Source: Promethearchaeota archaeon
GTDB lineage: Archaea; Asgardarchaeota; Hermodarchaeia; Hermodarchaeales; Hermodarchaeaceae
Direction of reading: 5' to 3'
DNA length: 64,000 nucleotides
Assembly (NCBI GenBank): GCA_048938385.1
Contig: JBHLMG010000001.1
Coordinates: 32,001 to 96,000 of the forward strand
The position numbers were made by a program, and so were the translations under genes. Below, piece by piece: positions 2,941 to 52,622 of the stretch. The notes below the pieces were generated by a model. The model did not search any database, was not told the DNA's origin, and was given only the letters and a program-made list of their open reading frames with translations. How positions within the stretch are numbered: the stretch's first letter is position 1; each line of letters begins with the position of its first letter.

Positions 2941-4452
2941 CTAAAACCCCTCGTTGCTGCGCTGCTCTTGCCAGGACTCCTTCGTCTTGACATCAAAGGC
3001 AGTGAACCCTTCTTCTTGGACAATCGTTGGTTCGTGCCATGTCCAACAGCTTCGCTCAAAATCAAAAGTGTCAAACGATAATGGCCAACCACCAATTTCA
3101 GGACCTGCAAGAGAGATGTCAGCTTGAGTGTGAAGGTATTTGGCAAGGTAGTACCGCATCAAGGCATACGAACCTGCCGGTAAGGTTGCATAAAGCAGTA
3201 TTTCCTTACGACCACTATGATAGTCAGTAAGCTGCCGGGTCCACGCTTGAGGTAGTTCGTCGATAATTCCTACGAGTCGTGCATCGTGTTCACTTATCCT
3301 AATGAAAACATCCTCAATGAGTCCTACTCGTCTGAGCATGGGGTGTAACTGAATGACGCCCAATTCAATTAACTTGCTTTTTCGGCGACTAGCCTGTGCA
3401 ACACTAATTCGAGCGCTTTTCGCTAGCTTCTCTAGCTTAACACGGGCGTCCGACATCAAAATAGGGATAATCTGTTTGTCTTTCTGATCTGGAATATAAA
3501 GGCGAGAAGGTTGCTTTGGTTCCTCTCTCTTCGCGAAGGAACCAGAACTTGTGCGTCCCGTGTGGAAAAGATGGGCACCTAGGAAGAGCTTTCTCCAATC
3601 GATGTTCCATCTTCCGGGTTTTACTTTATAATGGGTAAATCCTACAGTTTTACCCAGGTCTTTCGCTAGGTAAAGCGTGTGTGCAGTGCCCAAACGCGTC
3701 TTGAGCGTCTTTGAACACGATCCGAGATGATCTTCAGGAACCACCATGAAATATAAGGTACTTCTTGAATTGCCAGAGAGTTCAATACGGGAAAGGAGGT
3801 ATGGGCTTCTAATTGAGCTTTTCGTGTCATAAAATTCAACAAAGACTGGAACTAAACCCAAACTTGGGTAGTGTACCTTCGCTATGATTTTACAGATGTT
3901 TAATCTCTGTAACCGTTTCCAACGGCGGCGGATCTTCTTCTCACCGACACGAAGCAGTCGCGAAACTTCAGGAATGGTCATTGTTGGCATTTGGCTCAGA
4001 GTCTGAATTATGCCAATATCAAGTGCTGTTAACCTGAAACTGGAAAATTTACACAGTTCAGTTGCCAGGATCCAAAACTGCTCCACAGTAAGGGGCGTTG
4101 TAGTGCACTGTGCGACTGATTGAAGCAATGGAACTATGCGTTCAAGAAATCGTCCGTCCAGTTTTCCATCCCAATCAAGGAAATCAGGCAATCCCCTATA
4201 GCCACCGGGTCCAAACGCGAAAGGAACCTTAAACTCAGTGAAAGAGGTGTCAAGGCAGCTTCGGAGCCAATCCAGTCTTCCTGCTAATTTGTTCTGAAAG
4301 AATTCGAGAAAATCGGCTCTTATCACTTGGGGCAAGATGGGGGGTAACCAGTGGTCTAGAATCCTGTCGGGGGTGGAAATGGCCGAATCGGGGATGTCTT
4401 GCCATGGTTTGCACTTAAGATGTTTGAAAGCCAAGTCTAGGTTGAGTCGCAT
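2941..4452 (-). CDS. Large Lrp/AsnC-like protein with two winged-HTH modules
   Basis: Two HTH segments (LDIGIIQTL..MTIPEVSRLL..IRRRWKRL and DKQIIPILMSDARVKLEKLAKSARIS..SRRKSKL), each followed by an effector-like domain. Confidence 0.6.
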   Translation of the reverse strand: MRLNLDLAFKHLKCKPWQDIPDSAISTPDRILDHWLPPILPQVIRADFLEFFQNKLAGRLDWLRSCLDTSFTEFKVPFAFGPGGYRGLPDFLDWDGKLDGRFLERIVPLLQSVAQCTTTPLTVEQFWILATELCKFSSFRLTALDIGIIQTLSQMPTMTIPEVSRLLRVGEKKIRRRWKRLQRLNICKIIAKVHYPSLGLVPVFVEFYDTKSSIRSPYLLSRIELSGNSRSTLYFMVVPEDHLGSCSKTLKTRLGTAHTLYLAKDLGKTVGFTHYKVKPGRWNIDWRKLFLGAHLFHTGRTSSGSFAKREEPKQPSRLYIPDQKDKQIIPILMSDARVKLEKLAKSARISVAQASRRKSKLIELGVIQLHPMLRRVGLIEDVFIRISEHDARLVGIIDELPQAWTRQLTDYHSGRKEILLYATLPAGSYALMRYYLAKYLHTQADISLAGPEIGGWPLSFDTFDFERSCWTWHEPTIVQEEGFTAFDVKTKESWQEQRSNEGF

Positions 4453-4520: not shown

Positions 4521-5624
4521 TCAGCTTACAGACCGAAATTCCAAATCCAGCTTCTTTGCATGAGCGTATGCTTGATTCATTTCTTGAGAGGTAACTCGAC
4601 GAGAAATGTCTTGGTATTTTTTAGGATTTTTAAGGACTTGCCATAAGGGGCGGTATTGTTGCATGATGTTTACGAGTGCTAAAGGCGTATTTTCTGCTAT
4701 CCAGTCAAGAATTGGTAATACACAGCATTCGAGGTGGTTCGGTAGTACTAAAACGCGAATGATCATCTCCGTGGTGCTCTTGTCGTAGGCGGTTTTGATG
4801 TTTCGAGTTACCACGGATGTGTAGTTATTCACATTAGAAATTCTTGAAGCACATTCATCAGATAGGTACTTGAGATCGGGAAGCCAAAAATCGATGACAT
4901 CAATAAGTAGCTCCATTGCTTCGGGTGAGAGATACATGTTGGAATTCCAAAGCTGAGTTATATTGAACTGCTGCTTGCTCAATGACGAAAGGATGGTATG
5001 AAGGTGTGGAGTGGGATCTCCACCAACATAGTTAATGTTCTTGGCCCCTCGTGAAGCAAGTTCGTCTGCAATTTTTGCGAGTTGTTTTGGCGAAACAAGT
5101 TCTCCGTTTAATGGGTTACATGAAATATCGTAGTTTTGACAGTGTGCACAACGCAAATTACATCCACTGAAAAAGATAGTACCTGATGGGACAAGAGGGG
5201 GTTCTTCACCGGTGTGCAAAAACGCTGAAGAGACATAGCTTGAGTGGCTCACTTCACAGAAACCCAGATTCTTAGCCCGGTCTATATTGCATCGCCGGGC
5301 ACAAAAATGACATTCGTGAAGTATTCGATTTGCAAGAACTGCTTTCAGATCAAGAAATGATGTTGAGGCAAGCTTTTGAGAAGGATCCAGCGTTTTGTTT
5401 GTTAGCGCTTCTAATTGTTTCTTGAATTCTTCTCGAATACGCTGATGAGTGTTCCAGAGATTTGCAATTGTTTCTACCGGGTCAAAATCAACAGGCGTAT
5501 TGCGGGCGATAAGGTATTTGGCTGGAAGGCTGAGATCGATTATAGCCTTATATCTCTGGAAGCGTTGAGTTACCAAAGGGTTCGCCCAAACAGTTATCGC
5601 GTCGCTCCTAGCCAGTCGCCACAT
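4521..5624 (-). CDS. Radical SAM protein, PflX family
   Basis: CHFCARRC, GEEPPLVPSGTIFFSGCNLRCAHCQN, GGDPTP, NSNMY motifs. Confidence 0.88.
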   Translation of the reverse strand: MWRLARSDAITVWANPLVTQRFQRYKAIIDLSLPAKYLIARNTPVDFDPVETIANLWNTHQRIREEFKKQLEALTNKTLDPSQKLASTSFLDLKAVLANRILHECHFCARRCNIDRAKNLGFCEVSHSSYVSSAFLHTGEEPPLVPSGTIFFSGCNLRCAHCQNYDISCNPLNGELVSPKQLAKIADELASRGAKNINYVGGDPTPHLHTILSSLSKQQFNITQLWNSNMYLSPEAMELLIDVIDFWLPDLKYLSDECASRISNVNNYTSVVTRNIKTAYDKSTTEMIIRVLVLPNHLECCVLPILDWIAENTPLALVNIMQQYRPLWQVLKNPKKYQDISRRVTSQEMNQAYAHAKKLDLEFRSVS

Positions 5625-5706
5625 ACCAGTTCCACTAGTATGTAACAGCGCTAGTGAGCGTTATTAATTCCCCCGTTCTTTTCAAATTCCATAAGATGAG
5701 GAGTTT

Positions 5707-6003
5707 TTGTATCCCCTCAAAAAAAGCATTGTAGGGTGTATAAATCTGTTAATGCTTCAAGGATTGCAACTTCCTCTTCAAGGTCTTCTTGATCTGCTAA
5801 TCTACTATCTTAATACAGGCTGGGGAATAGTTATCCTAATTGGAACATTTGCTTCAGCGATTCTTATTGCTGTAGGATTCATTTATTGGTGTACTGGTCT
5901 TAATCCCAAAAAAGGGAGAAAAATGGTAATTGGTGGAGTCATATTGTTTGTTACTATGCAGTGGTTAGCTTTCAACACTCCTTGGCAGGTAATTCTTGGG
6001 TAA
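5707..6003 (+). CDS. Small two-TM membrane protein, possibly TrbC/VirB2 pilin-like (likely start ATG 5752)
   Basis: Two hydrophobic helices separated by a basic loop (NPKKGRK). Confidence 0.45.
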   Translation: MYPLKKSIVGCINLLMLQGLQLPLQGLLDLLIYYLNTGWGIVILIGTFASAILIAVGFIYWCTGLNPKKGRKMVIGGVILFVTMQWLAFNTPWQVILG

Positions 6004-6034
6004 ACTCACTTACAGGGCTTTTCGACTCTACACC

Positions 6035-6526
6035 TTACCTCGAAAAAGCTAAGCTTACCGCTTCTTTTGATGTTTGTGCGATATGAAGGTCTGAATGGGG
6101 AAATAATCCACGGTGTTGAATTATCATATCTGTGACACCCCCTGTGCCTTTAAGTAAAATCAACCGCTTTTGTACAGCGATAGCAAAACCAATTTCACTT
6201 AAAGTTCCACCAGATCCTGCAATACTGATGATCGCATCACTTGAGATGATATTAAGGTAATTTCGGGCATAGCCAATTCCCGTAGCAATAGCAAAGTCAA
6301 CATAGCGGTTGGCTACGCTGGCATCGCTTTCAGGGAGAATTCCAATAGTAATTCCTTTTTCGCTTTTTGCACCCTTAGACGCTGCTTCCATTACCCCGTC
6401 TTTACCACCAGTAATTAGAACGGCTTTCTTCTTTGCTATTTCCTGTCCAACGCTTTCTGCAATCTGGAAGATCTTAGGTGAGATATTTCCGCTGCTCCCA
6501 ATTACCGCAATCCGCTGCATCATCAT
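6035..6526 (-). CDS. LOG/SLOG family nucleotide-binding protein (TIGR00725-like)
   Basis: IAVIG, TGG..GVMEA, GIG.ARN, GGTLSEI motifs. Confidence 0.88.
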   Translation of the reverse strand: MMMQRIAVIGSSGNISPKIFQIAESVGQEIAKKKAVLITGGKDGVMEAASKGAKSEKGITIGILPESDASVANRYVDFAIATGIGYARNYLNIISSDAIISIAGSGGTLSEIGFAIAVQKRLILLKGTGGVTDMIIQHRGLFPHSDLHIAQTSKEAVSLAFSR

Positions 6527-6531
6527 CCCTT

Positions 6532-8635
6532 CTAAATTAATCCTCTTCGTTTTCGAATGTTAGAGCTAACACTTTGAAGACGGGATTCTGGTAAAATCTG
6601 CCATCGCGCAAACCTCGTTTGCCAATTCGCTCTTCCTGAGGTTTTCGATCGCAGAATATCCGCTAAATCAAACGACTCGCTCACAGGTAGCAAACCATTG
6701 ATCGTTACAAATACCCCCTTGTAATCAACATTCTCAACTTGTCCTCTTTTTGATATTACTACTTGGGTAACATCTTTCAGGTATTCGCTAGAAACAATGA
6801 CCTGTACTTCATAAATTGGTTCAAGAAGCGTCATACCCGCTTTTTCAAAGGCGTTAAAGATAGCATCCTTTACCATCGACATTAATTCGACTCGTCCTCT
6901 TTCTGCTACATTCTCACTTAACGCTAAATCAAGAATTCGAACGGTAGTTAATCCTACAGGTTCAGAACAAAAAGGCCCTCTTTCGAGTGCCCAAATTACT
7001 CCTTCAATAATTGAGTGTTTTGCTGACTCGGTTGCTTCTACATTTGTTGTAACTACCAGTCTGTTTCCTCGTTGATCCTTGTACCACTCGGTTTCTGTGG
7101 TCTGTTGTTGATTGCTCGGGTCTATGGATATGCGTATGTTGTTTTTACCATTCGGACTAGATGTTGGCTTTAGGGCTGATATTTTGTTCAAAGGGATTTC
7201 ACGGTACAAGACAATTGGATCGGAAGCTAAGACATCAACTCCCATTTTTTGAATATCTTTTAGTGTAATCTCCAAGTGTAAAAGACCCAGACCGGATAGA
7301 AGGTTTTCACCTGTTTGTTCGTTAATTGAAAAAGTTAGGTTCGGGTCACCCTTTGTTGTCAGTTCAAGAATGGATAGTAAGCGGGGCAGTTCTCTTGCAT
7401 GTTTCGGTTCGATGGCAATAGTGACGACAGGTTCGGTGATGTAGGTTATTTGTTCAAATGGTACCATACCCTCTGGAGGGTGTTGTCCTGTTATCGTATC
7501 TCCGGCTTGAACTTTTTCGATACCAATAAGACCGCAAATATTTCCTGCAGTTAATTGGGGAATAACCACTTGTCGTGAACCCATGAAAAGGGTAACGCGT
7601 TGAATTTGGTGCAATTCGCTTTCGGGTAGAATTTTAATTTGAGACCCTTTCTTAACGGAACCAGAGAATATGCGTCCGATTGCTATTAACCCATGTTTAG
7701 ATTCAGTGACAATTTTAGTTACTTCGATGATGAGTGGACCATCAGCACGGCATTCTCGGAGGACTGCACTGGCTGGGGATTCTGGGGGTCCTTTCCAAAT
7801 GTGTTGGGTTCGATATGGTTGCGCCTGCTTTGGTGAGGGAAGGCAGTCAATTATCATAGCAAGAATAGGGATGTGAATAGGAAGAAGTTCACTAAGAGAC
7901 TCAAACTGTTTATTTTGGTAATGTGTAATAATGTCTTGAAACCGAATATTGAGCTGTTTCATCTGTGAAACAGTGAAAGCCCATTTGTGGAGAGCTGAGC
8001 CAAAGGTCACCGAAGTGGACTCGGCGGATACAGTCCACTTTAATGGTGGTTCGCTTCCTAAGGCAGTTACAATTAGTTGGTTTACATCACGAATTATTTG
8101 TGTAAATTTTTCTTGAATTTGTGTCGCTGATAGTTTCAATTCGTTGATGAGTCGATCAATTTTGTTAATGAATAAAACTGGTTTTACACGCTCTTTAATA
8201 GCTAATCGAATCACGCTTTCTGTTTGAGCCATGACTCCTTCTACTGCGTCCACCACAACAATAGCTCCATCGATCGCGCGCATAGCTCGCGTAACTTTTC
8301 CACTAAAATCAACATGACCCGGAGTATCTACTAAGTTGACCACATACCGTTTCCCTTGGAATTCATGGAGGAGTGAAATGTTGGCAGATTTAATCGTAAT
8401 TGGGGCGGTCGTAAATCTCTACAGAACCGTTTCCCCTCCGCTGTTCCTCTTCAAGGTAATCTAATGCTCTTGCTTGTCCAACGAGGTTGGATGAAAGCAT
8501 TCCCGCATTAGCAAGGAGGGAGTCAGTGAGCGTCGTTTTGCCATGATCAATGTGTGCAATTATTCCAATGTTACGAATGAGGTCGGGAGTGGTCATTATT
8601 GCCTGTAATTCGTTAATTCGCTGATTCTGCGACAA
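6532..8635 (-). CDS. Elongation factor 2 paralog (aEF-2p-like), intron-containing: join(8635..8431, 8399..6532), 690 aa after splicing
   Basis: Exon 1 has NIGIIAHIDHGKTTLTD and EEEQRRG. Exon 2 has ITIKSANISL...DTPGHVDF...NKID and EF-2 domains through GRANWQTRF. The diphthamide loop reads SENVAERG instead of HEDAIHRG. 2104-31=2073 nt, i.e. 690 codons plus stop. Confidence 0.9.
8400..8430 (-). other. Putative 31-nt BHB pre-mRNA intron in the EF-2 paralog
   Basis: Minus strand reads CGGA-GGGG-AA^A-CGGT...ACCG-CCCC-AA^T-TACG: a 4-bp GGGG/CCCC helix between two 3-nt bulges. Cutting after bulge nt 2 gives CGG AGG GGA ATT ACG ATT (RRGITI). Confidence 0.88.
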
Positions 8636-8763
8636 GAGCGAATACTCTCCAACTAGGCTGCGTTTGTTAGGTTTATGGACGGGGTCTTAGTCTTGAACTA
8701 ATTATTGTTATTTCTGATGCTAAATAGTGTGTCGATGTGATTGGTTGTAATTCACAAGAAATG

Positions 8764-10446
8764 TTAGACTAGCTCCAACACCGTTTGGTCAAATACTATC
8801 ATGGTAATTAGAATCACTCCAAGAACCAAGGTTCCTTGTTGGGCGGTTAACGAAAATTCATGAAATCCAAGATCATACCATGCCTCAATGAACCAGATAA
8901 GAGAAGCATAACCTGATGTATTGGTGATTGCTGTACACCATGTCGTATTGGTACTAGACTCGACAAATTGAATATCCACATTGGTTAGTGGTTGGTAATC
9001 TAGCGTAGTAAGTTGTAAAAAATATTCTGTGGTTGTCTGGCGAAGGACTTGGATAGTAGAGTCTAGAATAAATCGTATTTCGTGGGTGTTAGTGATGAAA
9101 AGCTCTGTCTCACCATCTTTGAATTCTGGTCCGCCCTGAAAGACCATTTTAAACTGGAAGTCTTGGTCTCCCACATTCTGGGCTTGCCATAAGAAATGTG
9201 CGATTCCATTCGAATCTAAGGCTGTTTGTGCAAGAAGATTCCACATGGATTGATTGTAAAGGTAGATGGAACAGATTTTGCCCTGAATCGCGATAAGGGA
9301 TTCCTTATCCTTTGCTGATAATGTGAATTCAATGATATCTCCAATGGCTGCTTCCGAACAATTAGATTCAATACTTAAAAGGGCCTCTCGGGTGAATACC
9401 TGAATAGATATTGACATTGTTGTAAAGTTGTGATGGGGAACAGTGGCTTTGATGGTGAGAGTGTAGTTCCCTGGTGTGTTAGGAGCGAATATTTCAGCGG
9501 AAAAATGATTAGGGCTATCATAATTCATTGGTGTTGTTGCATTGTCTAAGGTGCATGACAAATTAGCTTCTTGGAGGGAATGGTTAGTTGTCTGGCAATA
9601 GATAAGTGCTGAAACTTGGATAGAACAATTATTGGTTAAGGGATAGTACGCTTGGACAATAGTCGTGTTGAGCGTAGAAGTTAAGGTCAGGCTTGAATTC
9701 AAGATATCGAAGGAGAAAAAGTGCATCGCAGAACTGTAATCTCCGGTTGAGAGGGCGGTGATGTTACAATCAAAGGTGCCGGTTCCACTTTGTGAGGTAT
9801 CGATTTCTTGCGCGAAAGTTGAAGTTTGAGAGGTATTAAGATCCCATGTTTGAATTATCTGAGTCTCTTGCGAGATAGCGATCCTGAGAGGATGCAATGG
9901 TACTAGAATTGACGCGTTATGGGAATTTTGCAATAAACCTTGGAGTTGAATGAGATCGTGGAAAGTAATCACTGCAGGTAAAGGTGATGTGCTTATGACC
10001 AAATCTCCTCGAAACACTGAAAATTGAAGTTCAGCAGTGTCAATCATCGTCCCGGAGGAGTCTTGAACCCATCCTTGAACTTGTACGACTCCAATTTGCC
10101 CTGTTGAATTGGGTTCCCAATCGGTGGGGGTTATCTCAAACGAAACGGTTTTGTTCACGCTGAGTCCGAGATCTGTAAATTGGTACATCTGTATAGGGAG
10201 GGGATTTCCTTGCACGATGAGGCTAACGCTTATTGACCCTGCACCCAGCGGATCTGAGGACTCGTAGTACATATCGTAAACAAGGGTCACGAATAGAGGT
10301 TCTCCGATTTGATAGGACGGCTGATCTATGTTTACTGCCACGATTTGAACGAAGCACTCTTGGGTTAGCACAGTATTTATGAATGGGCTAGTTAGCGGAA
10401 TAATGAGGATGGAAAGCAGGGAGATTATCAAGAAGTGACGATTCAT
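8764..10446 (-). CDS. Secreted/surface protein with Ig-like beta-sandwich repeats
   Basis: Signal peptide, S/T/N-rich beta strands, repeated 'T...G.A...W' motif shared with 1820..2938. Confidence 0.55.
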   Translation of the reverse strand: MNRHFLIISLLSILIIPLTSPFINTVLTQECFVQIVAVNIDQPSYQIGEPLFVTLVYDMYYESSDPLGAGSISVSLIVQGNPLPIQMYQFTDLGLSVNKTVSFEITPTDWEPNSTGQIGVVQVQGWVQDSSGTMIDTAELQFSVFRGDLVISTSPLPAVITFHDLIQLQGLLQNSHNASILVPLHPLRIAISQETQIIQTWDLNTSQTSTFAQEIDTSQSGTGTFDCNITALSTGDYSSAMHFFSFDILNSSLTLTSTLNTTIVQAYYPLTNNCSIQVSALIYCQTTNHSLQEANLSCTLDNATTPMNYDSPNHFSAEIFAPNTPGNYTLTIKATVPHHNFTTMSISIQVFTREALLSIESNCSEAAIGDIIEFTLSAKDKESLIAIQGKICSIYLYNQSMWNLLAQTALDSNGIAHFLWQAQNVGDQDFQFKMVFQGGPEFKDGETELFITNTHEIRFILDSTIQVLRQTTTEYFLQLTTLDYQPLTNVDIQFVESSTNTTWCTAITNTSGYASLIWFIEAWYDLGFHEFSLTAQQGTLVLGVILITMIVFDQTVLELV

Positions 10447-11265: not shown

Positions 11266-12690
11266 CTAAGCAACTGGTGTCAAAAGTTGCTGATCTGTTA
11301 TCACTCGACTTCGGTATTCTGTTAGAACCTCTTCTAGTTCCTGCTTATTCGAAACTACATGAATCCTCATTTCAGAGGCAATCCGAGAGACCGTGTCTTC
11401 TAGAACGCGAATTTGTATAGGATTGGTGATTAAAAAGCCAATGTCACTATGTTCCTCGCTCTTAAGCCCTGTTACCATTCGCTCTACTAGCCAACTTATC
11501 TGTTGTTCCAAATTTTGCGAAATAATGAAAAACAGAAACTTACCAACTTGGGCATCAAACCTCATTGGAACTCCATCAATCAAGATTTGAGCGTCTTTTA
11601 CACAGGGCAATCCAAGAGTCGATGATAACTGAGCTAGAAGGGTTTTCCAAGTCACAGGGTTCGTTCCCTCTTCAAATTGGATGAATTCGGGTTGAGCTAT
11701 GATGGTTTCTTGACTCAATTGAACTGATTTAATTTGGTTGAAAATGAGTTTGGCTGTTGATGAAAAATCTAAGGCTTTCTGTGTGAAAATAACGGGATTA
11801 CGAGAAAGGATATCTCCAAAGAACTGGATCGCCTTACCCGCTGGAATTTTAACAATGTGTTTTGGTTTAATGGAAGAGAGAATGGAGTTAATTGGTTCAT
11901 TAGAAACCACAACCAACGAATCAAAAACTGTAAAATTACTTTCTTCCCGTCTTAATGAAAGAATAACTCTAAGTTGTTGAGAATTAGATTTATGAGCAAA
12001 AATCTTACCTACGCTAATCTCATTCGATGGGCCTATACCCGTGAATACCCTCCGCTCCTTTGTAACATCGCTTTGGATAAACACACCATTTTTTATGCCA
12101 ACACTTACTCGAGTTATGCTCCCTGTCATTCCCAGGGAAAAGTGGGTCATCAGCTCGTCGCCTTTCAAGATGTGGACCATTCGAGGGTTCAGGAGCGTTG
12201 TTAAGTTGGTTGAAACGCTCTCTACAAGCTCTTGTATACGAGTGAGAAAGGATTCCTTATCCAGTTTGATGAAAAAGTTCACAAAACATTCCTCCTGTGA
12301 CACCCATTCAAAACTACAAATTGTGGAGATTGGTATGATTTTGAGAAGAATGGTTAGGGTACGCATTGCAGTTTTGGTTTCGATGATACTTGGTGTTAAT
12401 CTAAAAGCAAAAAACACAGCATTGCGACTTTTCGGGGACTGGAATGCAAGAAGCCCCTCTTCAAAGACCGTTGGGTTGGTCAAATCAAAGAGTTCACTTT
12501 TAACCTCAATTAGTATTGCTCTTACAAGGAAAGCTGATGAGACTATCGAAACTCCTAGCAGGACTAGGTTGCCCCAAGCAGGGTACAATCCCAATATCAG
12601 GAGAAAGAGAAGGAGAACAAGACCGATGCTCAAGTAACTCAGGCCAAGTGAAATAATTTGTTGGTACCTTTTTACGACTGCTACCCTCAT
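11266..12690 (-). CDS. Hypothetical membrane protein (2 N-terminal TMs, large soluble region)
   Basis: 474-aa ORF filling the gap; hydrophobic hairpin at the N-terminus. Confidence 0.55.
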   Translation of the reverse strand: MRVAVVKRYQQIISLGLSYLSIGLVLLLFLLILGLYPAWGNLVLLGVSIVSSAFLVRAILIEVKSELFDLTNPTVFEEGLLAFQSPKSRNAVFFAFRLTPSIIETKTAMRTLTILLKIIPISTICSFEWVSQEECFVNFFIKLDKESFLTRIQELVESVSTNLTTLLNPRMVHILKGDELMTHFSLGMTGSITRVSVGIKNGVFIQSDVTKERRVFTGIGPSNEISVGKIFAHKSNSQQLRVILSLRREESNFTVFDSLVVVSNEPINSILSSIKPKHIVKIPAGKAIQFFGDILSRNPVIFTQKALDFSSTAKLIFNQIKSVQLSQETIIAQPEFIQFEEGTNPVTWKTLLAQLSSTLGLPCVKDAQILIDGVPMRFDAQVGKFLFFIISQNLEQQISWLVERMVTGLKSEEHSDIGFLITNPIQIRVLEDTVSRIASEMRIHVVSNKQELEEVLTEYRSRVITDQQLLTPVA

Positions 12691-12826
12691 CTTTCTCTAA
12701 CAAATTCTTGTTAAAACGGGCTAAAAACTCGTACAAAACACGAACCTGACACTACTTCCAAATTATCACGATATGAGTAAAATTTAAGACACCTTAGGGC
12801 TTTGCCGCTGCTGAAGATCGCTCAAG

Positions 12827-13282
12827 GTGCTTGAATCGATGCCGGTCTTTAGAACTGATTTGTATGTTACACTCAAGGTGTCTGATTTTGATTTAGCTCA
12901 ATCGAGTGATTTGCTCTTTCAAATCTTAAGTAATGTGTCCGATCTTCGAAATGTGAAGATGACAAAAGTACGACACGATAAAGAAGAACAAGGAAAAATT
13001 AAGATTGAAGAATGGTTTGAAATAACCGGTTCAATAAATGTTCCCGAAGGCGGCAAATCATTTTGGGCGATCTCAAAAGAGAGCTCAATAAAAGAACCTT
13101 ATAACTTCTTTATCCGCATCGATAGAAACATTGAGGCTGAAGACTATGAGACTGCCCAGAACCGAGCCCATGATTGGGTTTTAGCCGTATTTATCAAGCC
13201 CTTAGAAGCAAAACTCAATTTTGAGGAAAAGCACCTATCGGCTCCAGACAAACTGAGTAAAATCGCTCAAAAGTTGGGGTGA
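12827..13282 (+). CDS. Hypothetical protein, first gene of the tfr operon
   Basis: 151-aa ORF ending 3 nt before tfrA. Confidence 0.6.
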   Translation: MLESMPVFRTDLYVTLKVSDFDLAQSSDLLFQILSNVSDLRNVKMTKVRHDKEEQGKIKIEEWFEITGSINVPEGGKSFWAISKESSIKEPYNFFIRIDRNIEAEDYETAQNRAHDWVLAVFIKPLEAKLNFEEKHLSAPDKLSKIAQKLG

Positions 13283-13285
13283 AAC

Positions 13286-14992
13286 TTGTTGACTTTTGAA
13301 ATAATCGACACAGAGATTCTCATTGTAGGTGCCGGAGGGGCCGGTTGCCGTGCTGCGATTGCTGCTTCAGAATCGAATCTAGATATAACCATTATCACAA
13401 AGGACATTCTTGGTAAAGCTCATACTGTGATGGCAGAGGGAGGAATCAATGCAGCATTAGCTAACCTCGATCCAGATGACACTTGTGAGATACATGCAGG
13501 AGATACTTGTAGAGCTGGAGCCTTTCTTAATAACCAGAATCTAGTTCAAATTCTCGCCGATGAAGCTCTTCCACGCGTTTTAGATCTTGAAAACTTTGGG
13601 GCTTTGTTCTCACGCACGCCAGATGGATTGATAATGCAACGCCCATTTGGTCACCAGACCTATCGACGAACATGCTACGCTGGTGATCGGACCGGTCATG
13701 AAGTTATTGCCACTTTAACTGATGAACTTCGTCGACGAGATGTTCACATTATAGACGAGATCTTTGCGACTTCACTTCTTCGCAACTCCAATCGTGTATC
13801 AGGAGTTTCAGTAATTGACATTCGGACAGGAAAATTCAAAATTTTCCGCGCTCCTGCAGTCGTCATGGCAGCAGGCGGGGCAGGGCGTATTTATGATGTA
13901 ACGACTAACGCGCAAGCAGATGTCGGTAGTGGTTATGCAATGGCATACAAAGCAGGCGTTAAACTGATTGATATGGAACAGTTTCAATTCCATCCAACCG
14001 GTGCAGCAATCCCGCCTGCGGCTCGAGGACGCCTAGTAACAGAAGGAGTACGCGGTGAAGGTGGGATTCTTCTCAATAAGAACGGAGAACGGTTCATGAA
14101 ACAATATAATCCCCGTTCGATGGAGCTTGCGGGTCGTGACGAAGTTGCTCGATCAATAGCCACTGAAATTCGTGAAGGTCGAGGAACAGTTAACGACGCC
14201 GTGTATCTAGATATTTCATTTTTACCTGCCAAAATTATCGAAGAACGGCTACCAACCATGCTAGAAGATTTCTTGGATATTGGGGTAGATATTCGAAAGG
14301 AACCAATGGAGGTCACTCCAACAGCCCACCATGTGATGGGAGGAATCAAAATTGACACTTCCGCCGCTACTACCCTCCCCGGGTTCTTTGCTGCAGGTGA
14401 AGTAGCAGGGGGAGTTCATGGAGGGAACAGACTAGGAGGAAACGCACTGGCGGCAGGTCAAGTATTTGGAAAAATCGCTGGGGATTCTGCCGCGCTATAT
14501 GCTAAATCTACCTCGACACCTAAACTTAATCGAGACGAAATCAACAACGAATATTCTAGGATAACAGCTCCGCTAAAAAGAGAAGCCGGTCTTAGCCCTT
14601 CAGCTGAAATAAAACGACTACAAAGCGCTATGTGGGATAAAGCAGGGCTATTCAGAAATGAACAAGACCTAAATGACGTCTTGCTTTTCATCAAGCAACA
14701 GCAACAACAGGTCATTGACCAGTTGGTCGTTCAGAACAAAGCCATGCGGTATAACACAGAATGGATTAGTGCACTAGAATTGCAGGATATGGGGCTTGTT
14801 GCAGAGATGATTGTTCGTGCGGCTCTCTTACGCAAGGAATCGAGAGGCGCTCACTTTCGAACAGATTATCCCAATCTTGACAATGAGAACTGGTTCTCGA
14901 ACATCGTGATATTTCAGCAAAAGGGAACGATGGTGCTCAAAAACGAAGCCGTTGTTGTCACGAAATGGAATCCCCCATGGACTAGAAAATAG
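13286..14992 (+). CDS. tfrA: Fumarate reductase flavoprotein subunit (thiol:fumarate reductase A type)
   Basis: GAGGAG, AHTVMAEGG, QFHPT, TEGVRGEGG, HH.MGG, HGGNRLGGN, ESRGAH. Confidence 0.9.
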   Translation: MLTFEIIDTEILIVGAGGAGCRAAIAASESNLDITIITKDILGKAHTVMAEGGINAALANLDPDDTCEIHAGDTCRAGAFLNNQNLVQILADEALPRVLDLENFGALFSRTPDGLIMQRPFGHQTYRRTCYAGDRTGHEVIATLTDELRRRDVHIIDEIFATSLLRNSNRVSGVSVIDIRTGKFKIFRAPAVVMAAGGAGRIYDVTTNAQADVGSGYAMAYKAGVKLIDMEQFQFHPTGAAIPPAARGRLVTEGVRGEGGILLNKNGERFMKQYNPRSMELAGRDEVARSIATEIREGRGTVNDAVYLDISFLPAKIIEERLPTMLEDFLDIGVDIRKEPMEVTPTAHHVMGGIKIDTSAATTLPGFFAAGEVAGGVHGGNRLGGNALAAGQVFGKIAGDSAALYAKSTSTPKLNRDEINNEYSRITAPLKREAGLSPSAEIKRLQSAMWDKAGLFRNEQDLNDVLLFIKQQQQQVIDQLVVQNKAMRYNTEWISALELQDMGLVAEMIVRAALLRKESRGAHFRTDYPNLDNENWFSNIVIFQQKGTMVLKNEAVVVTKWNPPWTRK

Positions 14993-30521: not shown

Positions 30522-30629
30522 TGGTGCCGCGTCGGGGATTTTCATCTGCAGGGTAAACCCCCAAAGAATTTGAACCCCGGTCCTAAGGTCGAGAGCCTCA
30601 GATGATTGACCTGGCTACACTAACGCGGC
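30522..30629 (-). tRNA. tRNA-Glu(CTC) with a 30-nt T-loop intron at 59/60 (30539..30568); CCA encoded
   Basis: GCCGCGT/ACGCGGC acceptor, loop CT-CTC-GA. BHB: TTCA-AA^T-TCT..AGA-TGAA-AA^T. Confidence 0.93.
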
Positions 30630-30780
30630 TTTGAGGAATGTGTCCAAGCATCGGTTTTTTAAACTTTCTACCATGCCTCTTTATAAGCACCTATTCGGTT
30701 TCAAACCTACAAAAGCCTAATAGGCTACAAAAAGAATCACGACCGAATTCAAAATTTACTATACACTGGAGGATAATACG

Positions 30781-52523: not shown

Positions 52524-52622
52524 GCCTCGATAGCTCAGTGGTAGAGCGACAGCCTCGTAAACTCTTAGATAAATAGTCGAGTAAGCTGCTGGTCGCGGGT
52601 TCAATCCCCGCTCGAGGCTCCA
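52524..52622 (+). tRNA. tRNA-Thr(CGT) with a 24-nt intron at 37/38 (52560..52583); CCA encoded
   Basis: GCCTCGA/TCGAGGC acceptor. BHB: CTCG-TA^A-ACT..AGT-CGAG-TA^A. Confidence 0.94.

What the first reader, a model, noticed from the sequence alone, without database searches (positions are those of the whole stretch)
8400..8430. BHB-type pre-mRNA intron inside the GTPase switch I of an Asgard-like EF-2 paralog
Seen in sequence: the EF-2 gene is broken between ...EEEQRRG and ITIKSANISL... by exactly 31 nt (minus strand ACGGTTCTGTAGAGATTTACGACCGCCCCAA). The junctions fold as an outer helix CGGA/UACG (one mismatch), a central 4-bp helix GGGG/CCCC, two 3-nt bulges (AAA, AAU) and an inner stem CGGUU/GACCG plus GUAG/UUAC. 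Established: the archaeal splicing endonuclease EndA cuts after the second nt of each bulge. Those cuts give CGG AGG GGA ATT ACG ATT AAA (RRGITIK), the invariant G2 motif, with no residue gained or lost, and a 690-aa ORF. Unspliced RNA stops at 8390..8392 (81 aa). Archaeal protein-coding introns are rare; cbf5 in crenarchaeotes is the classic case, and I know of none in EF-2 genes. Inference: this translation factor needs tRNA-type splicing to be expressed, which could couple its level to EndA/RtcB activity. Annotation pipelines would call it a pseudogene or an N-terminally truncated protein.
Basis: partly seen in the sequence, partly recalled or inferred. Interest (0 to 1): 0.95.

Follow-up and report, generated by a model that had tools for sequence, protein, structure and literature searches.

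The report
tRNA-type intron in Asgard EF-2 paralog
A 31-base insert shaped like an archaeal tRNA intron splits the GTP-binding motif of a second EF-2-like gene in a Hermodarchaeum-type Asgard archaeon; relatives keep it in a way that makes sense only if the mRNA is cut and rejoined, which published work reports inside an archaeal coding sequence only for cbf5.

Summary
On the minus strand, exon 1 (8635/8596..8431) and exon 2 (8399..6532) of an EF-2 paralog are separated by 31 nt (8430..8400). [quoted passage not shown]

- About 24 distinct orthologous junctions carry a 30-33 nt insert at the same codon (RRG|I|TIK). They come from the same genus, its sister genus, a second GTDB family and metagenomes.
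- The central 4-bp helix is 97% paired, with compensatory changes. All 9 inner-stem pairs covary.
- All 51 closest database proteins are called N-terminally truncated.
- One nested lineage lacks the insert and reads a continuous EEEQRRGITIK, which matches the predicted splice product.
- Exon 1 has the lowest non-synonymous divergence in the gene.
- The genome encodes a two-subunit EndA and RtcB. Its cbf5 and dnaG are split in the same way.

Corrections: the outer exon-exon helix is not conserved, so the motif is relaxed (HBh'-like). The proposed regulatory coupling to EndA/RtcB is untested, and the intron is dispensable in one lineage. No RNA data were available.

Searchable literature reports coding-sequence BHB introns only for crenarchaeal cbf5. 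This scan has already noted many such Asgard mRNA introns on other DNA, including this gene family.

Verdict: a new member of a known kind, of high interest.

The parts
8431..8635 (-). Exon 1 of the EF-2 paralog. It runs from TTG 8635 (the conserved ATG is at 8596) to the first base of the split Ile codon (A 8431). It encodes the P-loop AHIDHGKTT and ends ...LDYLEEEQRRG.
   Evidence: It matches Pfam GTP_EFTU positions 3-54 and TIGR00490 positions 13-67. Mean pN is 0.089 against pS 0.775 among 15 orthologs, the lowest pN in the gene.
8400..8430 (-). 31-nt BHB intron. It comprises the third base of bulge 1, the inner hairpin (CGGUU/GACCG and GUAG/UUAC, loop AGAU), the 3' strand of the central helix (CCCC) and the first two bases of bulge 2.
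   Evidence: An insert of 30-33 nt sits at the same codon in all orthologs with DNA. Covariation is shown. The sequence is unique in the genome.
8433..8436 (-). 5' strand (GGGG, in exon 1) of the central 4-bp helix. It pairs with CCCC at 8402-8405.
   Evidence: 97% of cells are paired in 18 orthologs. Pair 21-55 occurs as GC 8, AU 7, CG 2 and GU 1.
8430..8432 (-). Bulge 1 (AAA). The predicted 5' cut lies between 8431 and 8430.
   Evidence: AAA is invariant in 18 orthologs. Cutting here gives the junction seen in the intron-less orthologs.
8399..8401 (-). Bulge 2 (AAU). The predicted 3' cut lies between 8400 and 8399.
   Evidence: It reads AAU or AGU in the orthologs. The register restores ATT/ATA (Ile) in every ortholog.
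6532..8399 (-). Exon 2. It begins with the last two bases of the Ile codon, then TIKSANISLL...DTPGH...NKID and domains II-V, and ends with the stop at 6532-6534.
   Evidence: There is no start codon in its first 19 codons (the first is GTG at 8343), yet those codons are conserved (pN 0.155, pS 0.739).
6035..6526 (-). Conserved downstream neighbour. Its orthologs in related loci carry the Pfam domain LDcluster4 (163 aa here).
   Evidence: The same gene order (a ~560-aa protein, split EF-2, LDcluster4, a radical SAM protein) is seen in all related loci.

Best explanation
The 31 nt at 8430..8400 (minus strand) are most likely an archaeal bulge-helix-bulge intron in the pre-mRNA of a diphthamide-less EF-2 paralog.

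Proposed mechanism:
1. The transcript folds so that GGGG (the end of exon 1) pairs with CCCC (the end of the intron).
2. This central helix is flanked by two 3-nt bulges, and an intron-internal hairpin stacks on it.
3. The two-subunit splicing endonuclease EndA cuts after the second base of each bulge.
4. RtcB joins the exons, re-creating the Ile codon of RG-I-TIK (G2/switch I). The product is a 677-690 aa five-domain GTPase.
5. Unspliced RNA can yield only an 81-aa P-loop fragment.

Shown here:
- the sequence and the fold
- a conserved position and register
- compensatory base changes
- purifying selection on both exons
- precise absence of the insert in one nested lineage
- presence of the enzymes in the genome

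Inferred:
- that cleavage and ligation happen on this RNA
- that the intron originated in or before the common ancestor of the family containing this genome, with one later loss
For: 1. Exact anatomy.

2. The same codon is interrupted by 30-33 nt in:
- 11 same-genus genomes
- the sister genus (L139)
- three genomes of GTDB family f26
- 6 metagenome/MAG loci reached through proteins
- 11 metagenome contigs reached by a DNA pattern

3. Covariation on 18 sequences:
- central helix 97% paired
- 9 of 9 inner-stem pairs changed on both sides
- covariation score 0.367, against 0.195 +/- 0.021 in shuffles (0 of 500 reach it) and 0.07-0.135 with slid partners

4. A natural control: 8 chance matches of the same primary-sequence pattern show no BHB pairing.

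5. All 51 nearest protein clusters lack the P-loop. Separate 67-100 aa GTP_EFTU ORFs are called just upstream of them.

6. The intron-less orthologs P0018/L121 and L120 read EEEQRRGITIKAANISLL continuously. P0018 nests deep inside the split clade, next to P0020, whose DNA has a 30-nt insert.

7. All 15 conceptually spliced CDSs are intact (675-685 aa). At saturated synonymous sites (pS about 0.75), pN is 0.089 in exon 1, 0.155 in the start-less first 19 codons of exon 2, and 0.23-0.27 in the rest of the gene.

8. Enzymes and context in the genome:
- two EndA-domain proteins, matching the catalytic and the structural half of fused EndA
- one RtcB
- about 21 of 36 ARAGORN tRNA calls carry an intron, some of them false calls
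- cbf5 and dnaG are split with abutting profile coordinates, and dnaG has a 28-nt BHB

9. Asgard EndA is reported as (alpha-beta)2 with the L1 loop, the type that cuts relaxed motifs (PMC5829648).
Against: No RNA evidence exists. No RNA run holding this locus could be listed, so cleavage, ligation and the circular intron are unobserved.

The outer exon-exon helix is weak in most orthologs (36% of cells paired). The 3' bulge is therefore poorly bounded, and cleavage depends on a broad-specificity enzyme that has not been assayed for this lineage.

The overall folding energy of the region is not exceptional (z = -0.5).

In family f26 the central helix has one mismatch.
Confidence: 0.9

Rival explanations
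1. This is a split gene without splicing. The 81-aa P-loop fragment and a 603-aa protein started at the internal GTG 8343 are made separately and work as two polypeptides, or only the large one works.
For: Gene callers produce exactly these two ORFs here and in the relatives. No RNA data contradict it.
Against: The 19 codons between the 3' junction and the first start codon are conserved at the protein level (TIKSANISLLH..., pN 0.155 against pS 0.739), although no start codon precedes them.

The first start codon available in exon 2 differs between orthologs.

A split would cut switch I in two.

This model gives no reason for a conserved, covarying BHB in a constant register. It also gives no reason for an ortholog with a seamless junction.
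Confidence: 0.04
2. Translational recoding: the ribosome bypasses the 31 nt, as in the phage T4 gene 60 hop, or shifts frame.
For: There is a hairpin directly after the last exon-1 codon, and the gap is of a size that ribosomes can hop. This is sequence only.
Against: There are no matched take-off and landing codons: GGA precedes the gap, and CCA/CAA precede the resumption. No stop codon follows the take-off codon directly.

The insert length varies (30, 31, 33 nt) while the BHB register is constant.

The covariation includes pairs between exon 1 and the 3' end of the insert (GGGG/CCCC). A take-off hairpin would not need those pairs.
Confidence: 0.02
3. The gene is a pseudogene, or the insert is an assembly artefact.
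For: There is a frameshifting insert with a premature stop. MAG assemblies do contain errors.
Against: The insert is identical in contigs of four runs. It is present in dozens of independently assembled genomes and metagenomes.

Both exons are intact in 15 of 15 orthologs, with strong purifying selection. Synteny is conserved.
Confidence: 0.01
4. This is an add-on to the best explanation, not an alternative to it. The intron is regulatory: the level of the EF-2 paralog is set by EndA/RtcB activity or by folding of the BHB, in analogy to RtcB-dependent HAC1/XBP1 splicing.
For: The intron has been retained over deep divergence, with exon-2 protein identity down to 53%. It sits in a motif essential for GTPase function. 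A second, independent BHB intron lies at the G3 motif of the f17 paralogs.
Against: One lineage lost the intron without losing the gene. The same genome has similar inserts in unrelated genes (cbf5, dnaG), which fits neutral spread of tRNA-type introns. No expression data exist.
Confidence: 0.15

Closest known systems
cbf5 pre-mRNA intron of Crenarchaeota (Desulfurococcales and Sulfolobales; Watanabe 2002, Yoshinari 2006, Yokobori 2009 = PMC2738675)
   Same: Both are short BHB introns inside a coding sequence, removed by the tRNA splicing endonuclease of the hetero-oligomeric type. Both were inherited in a clade and show lineage-specific precise loss. Both cause mis-annotation of the gene.
   Different: The host gene differs (a translational GTPase paralog, not a pseudouridine synthase), and so does the phylum (Asgard/Hermodarchaeia). 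The position here is inside the G2/switch I motif. Splicing is not yet shown on RNA here, whereas it is for cbf5. This genome's own cbf5 is also split.
BHB intron in the 5' UTR of Haloferax volcanii HVO_1309 mRNA (PMC7714728)
   Same: Both are EndA substrates in an mRNA.
   Different: The Haloferax intron lies in the untranslated leader and is not needed to restore a reading frame. It is cut by a homodimeric-type EndA.
Archaeal tRNA introns at non-canonical positions with relaxed HBh' motifs (Marck & Grosjean 2003; PMC5829648; Asgard tRNA introns in PMC11291895 and bioRxiv 10.64898/2026.10.13.758758)
   Same: The geometry is the same: a 4-bp helix, 3-nt bulges and an inner hairpin, with cuts after the second bulge base. 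The size range is the same, and the enzymes are presumably the same. The host genome is rich in tRNA introns.
   Different: The host RNA is an mRNA. The exon-side helix must be built from codons, so the outer helix is weak.
Asgard aEF-2 paralog (Narrowe et al. 2018, PMC6143161)
   Same: It is a second EF-2 family gene lacking the diphthamide His and scoring below the aEF-2 equivalog cut-off. It co-occurs with another EF-2 gene.
   Different: That paper mentions no intron. The Hermodarchaeia clade studied here is systematically split.
IRE1/RtcB unconventional splicing of HAC1/XBP1 mRNA in eukaryotes
   Same: Both are non-spliceosomal, protein-enzyme splicing of an mRNA that changes the reading frame, with ligation by a tRNA ligase (RtcB in metazoans).
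   Different: The endonuclease differs (IRE1, not EndA/TSEN), as does the recognition motif (two stem-loops). The eukaryotic case is proven to be regulated. The resemblance is functional only.

Membership tests
Archaeal BHB (EndA-dependent) intron | A central 4-bp helix between the 5' exon end and the 3' intron end | tested here: met
   GGGG/CCCC in the window. 97% of cells are paired in 18 orthologs, and pair 21-55 occurs as GC/AU/CG/GU.
Archaeal BHB (EndA-dependent) intron | Two 3-nt bulges on opposite strands, each 3' of its central-helix strand, with the splice sites after the second bulge base | tested here: met
   AAA is invariant, and the second bulge reads AAU or AGU. Cuts in this register restore the Ile codon in every ortholog and match the intron-less orthologs.
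Archaeal BHB (EndA-dependent) intron | An inner helix h' stacked on the 5' bulge | tested here: met
   CGGUU/GACCG plus GUAG/UUAC in the window. 83% of cells are paired, and 9 of 9 pairs changed on both sides.
Archaeal BHB (EndA-dependent) intron | An outer exon-exon helix h, required for the strict hBHBh' form | tested here: inconclusive
   In the window 3 of 4 pairs form (CGGA/UACG). Across orthologs only 36% of cells pair, and only G17-C62 is common. This makes it a relaxed HBh'-like form, which per PMC5829648 needs an (alpha-beta)2 or epsilon2 EndA.
Archaeal BHB (EndA-dependent) intron | The host encodes the splicing endonuclease and the RtcB ligase | tested here: met
   There are two EndA-domain ORFs (186 and 204 aa), matching the catalytic and the structural half of fused EndA. 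RtcB scores 579 bits.
Archaeal BHB (EndA-dependent) intron | The intron is absent from mature RNA, and a circular or linear excised intron is detectable | not testable with these tools
   No RNA run could be listed. No junction-spanning family member short enough to be a transcript fragment was found in the protein database.
Asgard aEF-2 paralog (Narrowe 2018) | EF-2 five-domain architecture, but below the aEF-2 equivalog cut-off | tested here: met
   The domains GTP_EFTU, D2, EFG_III, EFG_IV and EFG_C are all found. TIGR00490 scores 567 + 74 bits against a cut-off of 738.
Asgard aEF-2 paralog (Narrowe 2018) | Loss of the diphthamide His / HxDxxHRG loop of domain IV | tested here: met
   LSENVAERGRVEL here against LHEDPIHRGPAQ in canonical EF-2.
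Asgard aEF-2 paralog (Narrowe 2018) | Co-occurrence with another EF-2 gene in the same genome | tested here: met
   C16:9300-11504 holds an 802-aa frame (552 bits) that keeps both His residues of the loop. It is very divergent, so which copy is the main translocase is not settled.
Programmed translational bypass (T4 gene 60 type) | Matched take-off and landing codons, with a stop directly after the take-off codon | tested here: not met
   GGA is followed by AAC. No GGN landing codon precedes ATT ACG.
Group I / group II self-splicing intron | A ribozyme core recognisable by Rfam models, hundreds of nucleotides long | tested here: not met
   No Rfam match lies in or near 8400-8430. The insert is only 31 nt.

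The most novel reading that the evidence does not exclude
Asgard archaea may run a general mRNA-splicing layer on their tRNA-splicing enzymes, still evolving by gain and loss, and the EF-2 paralog would be a model case. It carries independent BHB introns at two GTPase motifs: G2 in Hermodarchaeia and family f26, and G3 in family f17. It also shows one precise loss, which lies next to an intein insertion. If splicing efficiency at such motif-splitting introns is regulated, this would be an archaeal counterpart, and possibly a forerunner, of RtcB-dependent unconventional mRNA splicing (HAC1/XBP1). It would also bear on how the ancestors of eukaryotes tolerated interrupted protein genes.
Probability: 0.2. 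Interest if true: 0.9.

Novelty: new member of a known kind. Interest (0 to 1): 0.78.

Why it matters
Published work documents endonuclease-type splicing inside an archaeal coding sequence for only one gene, cbf5, in Crenarchaeota. Here a translation-factor paralog of an Asgard lineage, the closest prokaryotic relatives of eukaryotes, appears to depend on it.

The comparative evidence is about as strong as it can be without RNA: covariation, precise loss, and selection on both exons.

Three consequences follow:
1. The gene is mis-annotated everywhere. All 51 nearest database entries are truncated, which affects EF-2 phylogenies, marker-gene sets and inferences about diphthamide loss.
2. Together with the split cbf5 and dnaG in this genome, and with other notes from this scan, it suggests that tRNA-type introns have spread into Asgard mRNAs on a scale not yet described.
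3. It offers a compact test substrate of about 80 nt, with natural compensatory variants and an intron-less control allele, for studying Asgard EndA specificity and intron gain and loss.

Tried and rejected
- RNA evidence: no RNA holder could be listed for this locus. None was listed, which is not the same as none existing.
- Spliced transcript fragments: I searched the protein database with a junction-spanning natural peptide (P0018:249-430). Only canonical EF-2 fragments at 68% identity or less came back, and no family member spanning the junction.
- Genome-contig scan with the protein alignment: it was swamped by canonical EF-2 and gave only one ortholog, L007.
- Genome-wide BHB plus ORF-fusion scan: it gave 28,728 raw and 665 filtered candidates, dominated by adjacent same-strand genes. 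It recovered this intron and the dnaG intron but cannot count true mRNA introns without homology checks. Other candidates (C37 82470, C36 58913, C23 314284) were not verified.
- Overall fold stability is not informative (z = -0.5).
- Repeat or mobile element: rejected, because the 31 nt are unique in the genome.
- Self-splicing intron or known RNA family: no Rfam hit.
- PMC3064391 (Tocchini-Valentini 2011) could not be read because it is not held.
- The tree cannot say whether the f26 intron at the same codon is homologous or a parallel gain. f26 groups with the intron-less f12 on long branches at 84% support, and the join was flagged as possibly false.
Full report
**Observation**

On the minus strand the sequence reads ...GAA GAG GAA CAG CGG AGG GGA A, then 31 nt (8430..8400), then TT ACG ATT AAA TCT GCC AAC...

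ORF listing gives an 81-aa ORF (8390..8635) ending at TAA 8392..8390, and a 603-aa ORF starting at GTG 8343 in another frame.

- Exon 1 (P0002) hits Pfam GTP_EFTU positions 3-54 and NCBIfam aEF-2 (TIGR00490) positions 13-67.
- The frame from Thr 8397 (P0001) hits GTP_EFTU 56-187 and TIGR00490 from position 69, followed by D2, EFG_III, EFG_IV and EFG_C.

Exactly one profile position, the split Ile codon A|TT, lies between the two pieces. RNAfold's MFE reproduces the central GGGG/CCCC helix, the AAA bulge and both inner stems, although the total energy is ordinary (z = -0.5).

In this genome a strict BHB occurs by chance at about 4.7e-4 per position and length. One in the single frame-restoring register is therefore already unlikely.

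The 31 nt are unchanged in contigs from four sequencing runs, though three of those may be the source data. They are unique in the genome.

**Organism and gene**

The window is contig C23 of a 2.48-Mb, 90%-complete genome. Its closest named relative is Candidatus Hermodarchaeum yapensis (L007). The junction of L007 is identical to that of a same-genus genome (L090; taxonomy), so this is a Hermodarchaeia Asgard archaeon.

The protein scores below the aEF-2 equivalog cut-off. Its domain IV loop reads LSENVAERGRVEL where canonical EF-2 has LHEDPIHRGPAQ. This fits the diphthamide-less Asgard EF-2 paralog of Narrowe et al. 2018 (PMC6143161), a paper that mentions no intron.

A second, very divergent EF-2 gene lies on C16 (an 802-aa frame with loop HEDPAHTKGGQ).

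**Comparative evidence**

A database search with exon 2 returned about 50 clusters at 53-75% identity, labelled Hermod-, Prometh- or Thorarchaeota MAGs. Nearly all are 583-641 aa long. None of the 51 contains the P-loop. Where neighbours are recorded, a separate 67-100 aa GTP_EFTU ORF sits just upstream, in conserved synteny.

At the DNA level, exon 1 and exon 2 are separated by an insert at the very same codon in every lineage sampled:
- 11 same-genus genomes: 31 nt, or 30 nt in one
- the sister genus (L139)
- three genomes of another GTDB family, f26 (L114, L116, L136)
- six further metagenome/MAG loci: 31 or 33 nt
- 11 contigs found by a DNA pattern in JGI metagenomes

The other 8 pattern hits are unrelated DNA. 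They show at most 2 of 4 central pairs and no inner stem, which makes them a useful natural control.

**Covariation**

- The central helix is paired in 97% of cells. Its second pair occurs as G-C (8), A-U (7), C-G (2) and G-U (1).
- All 9 inner-stem pairs show changes on both sides.
- The covariation score is 0.367, against 0.195 +/- 0.021 in shuffles (0 of 500 reach it) and 0.07-0.135 when partners are slid by 1-3 columns.
- Bulge 1 (AAA) is invariant.
- The outer exon-exon helix is not conserved (36% paired).

In most relatives the motif is therefore the relaxed HBh' form. That form is cut only by (alpha-beta)2 or epsilon2 EndA, and Asgard EndA is reported to be (alpha-beta)2 with the L1 loop (PMC5829648).

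This genome encodes two EndA-domain proteins. One matches the catalytic half and the other the structural half of fused EndA. It also encodes RtcB. About 21 of 36 ARAGORN tRNA calls carry an intron, some of them false calls.

**The splice product exists in nature**

P0018 (L121) and G061:C131 (L120) are orthologs at 63-67% identity at the syntenic locus. Both read ...LDFLEEEQRRGITIKAANISLLH... without interruption. They carry instead a ~540-aa LAGLIDADG intein after the P-loop GK, 36 codons upstream.

In a maximum-likelihood tree (quick search, LG+G4), the split clade has 100% SH-aLRT support. P0018 nests deep inside it, sister to P0022/P0023 and then to P0020. The DNA of P0020 (L133) has a 30-nt insert.

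The simplest reading is a precise intron loss. It parallels the cbf5 history (PMC2738675) and confirms the predicted junction to the base.

**Selection**

All 15 conceptually spliced CDSs are intact, at 675-685 aa. With synonymous sites saturated (pS about 0.75), non-synonymous divergence (pN) by segment is:
- exon 1: 0.089
- the 19 codons of exon 2 that precede any start codon: 0.155
- the rest of the gene: 0.23-0.27

This rejects a pseudogene. It also rejects a model in which only an internally initiated exon-2 protein is made.

**Rivals**

- Translational bypass lacks matched take-off and landing codons, and it does not explain exon-intron pairing that covaries.
- Self-splicing introns are excluded by size and by the absence of Rfam hits.
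- Assembly artefact is excluded by recurrence in independent assemblies.
The intron is dispensable in one lineage, and this genome's cbf5 and dnaG are split in the same manner, which fits neutral spread.

**What is missing**

There is no RNA evidence. No RNA run could be listed, and no transcript-like junction fragment was found. Splicing is therefore inferred, at a confidence I put at about 0.9.

**Comparison with the known**

In the literature I could search, BHB introns inside coding sequences are reported only for cbf5 of Crenarchaeota, plus one 5'-UTR case in Haloferax (PMC7714728). Asgard papers report only tRNA introns (PMC11291895; bioRxiv 10.64898/2026.10.13.758758). By mechanism this is the same kind of element, in a new gene and a new phylum: a new member of a known kind.

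This scan's own notes already list many BHB-type mRNA introns in Asgard genomes. One has an RNA-derived contig lacking the insert. Another is this same EF-2 paralog intron in another genome. I used those notes as leads only.

**Extra finding**

EF-2 paralogs of family f17 (L100, L137) have no insert at the G2 site. They carry a canonical BHB insert at DTPGH|VD (the G3 motif), 31 and 33 nt long in two genera, in the same register (GGUC-AUN...GACY-AAG). Family f12 paralogs are uninterrupted. The EF-2 paralog has therefore acquired tRNA-type introns at least twice.

Noticed in passing
L100 (G127:C6, about 3294-3323 of the locus, minus strand) and L137 (G128:C23, just after the DTPGH codons): EF-2 paralogs of another Asgard family (f17, two genera) lack the G2-site insert. 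They carry a canonical BHB insert at the G3 motif DTPGH|VD instead. It is 31 nt in L100 (GGUC AUA, a 10-bp AU stem, GACU AAG). It is 33 nt with an in-frame TAG in L137 (GGUC AUU ... GACC AAG). This is an independent second intron position in the same gene family.
   Followed up: partly
L120 (G061:C131) and L121 (JGI Ga0452204_161422): The only intron-less orthologs carry a ~540-aa LAGLIDADG intein inserted after the P-loop GK, 36 codons upstream of the lost intron site. Co-conversion during intein homing could have erased the intron (speculation). G061 is binned in a different family (f10), and the 2.9-kb contig may be mis-binned.
   Followed up: partly
G000:C4:12543-12650 and 12689-13540 (+): This genome's cbf5 is split.
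   Followed up: partly
G000:C23:180501-180528 (-), i.e. about 84.5 kb beyond the window end: dnaG is split by 28 nt between ...FGQTEGL and LGEDLDL. The insert has a BHB with a 9-bp inner stem (GCCU ACA ... GGGC AAU). Positions 1-30 and 26-419 of the profile NF003108 (PRK04031; I took this to be the archaeal DnaG family) lie on the two sides.
   Followed up: partly
G000:C16:9300-11504 (-): The genome's other EF-2 gene is very divergent: an 802-aa open frame, 552 bits (below the aEF-2 cut-off), loop HEDPAHTKGGQ, and a branch length of 1.6 in the tree. Which copy is the working translocase is unclear. A canonical copy may be missing from the 90%-complete assembly.
   Followed up: no
window 52524-52619 (+) and 30552-30631 (-): Rfam finds a 96-nt tRNA at 52524-52619 that ARAGORN misses, so it probably carries one or more introns. 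The tRNA-Glu(CUC) at 30552-30631 is 80 nt long.
   Followed up: no
window 4521-10446 (-): A gene order is conserved around the split gene in all relatives. It runs: a ~560-aa protein with no Pfam hit (hydrophobic N- and C-termini by eye), the EF-2 paralog, an LDcluster4 (LOG-like) protein, a small ORF on the opposite strand, then a radical SAM protein.
   Followed up: no
G000:C37:82470 (+), C36:58913 (-), C23:314284 (-): These are unverified candidates from my BHB plus ORF-fusion scan. Inserts of 20, 29 and 25 nt lie directly before an SGGVDS PP-loop motif, an FPHHENSIA motif (CysRS-like) and a PHIGHA motif. Some are probably false positives.
   Followed up: no
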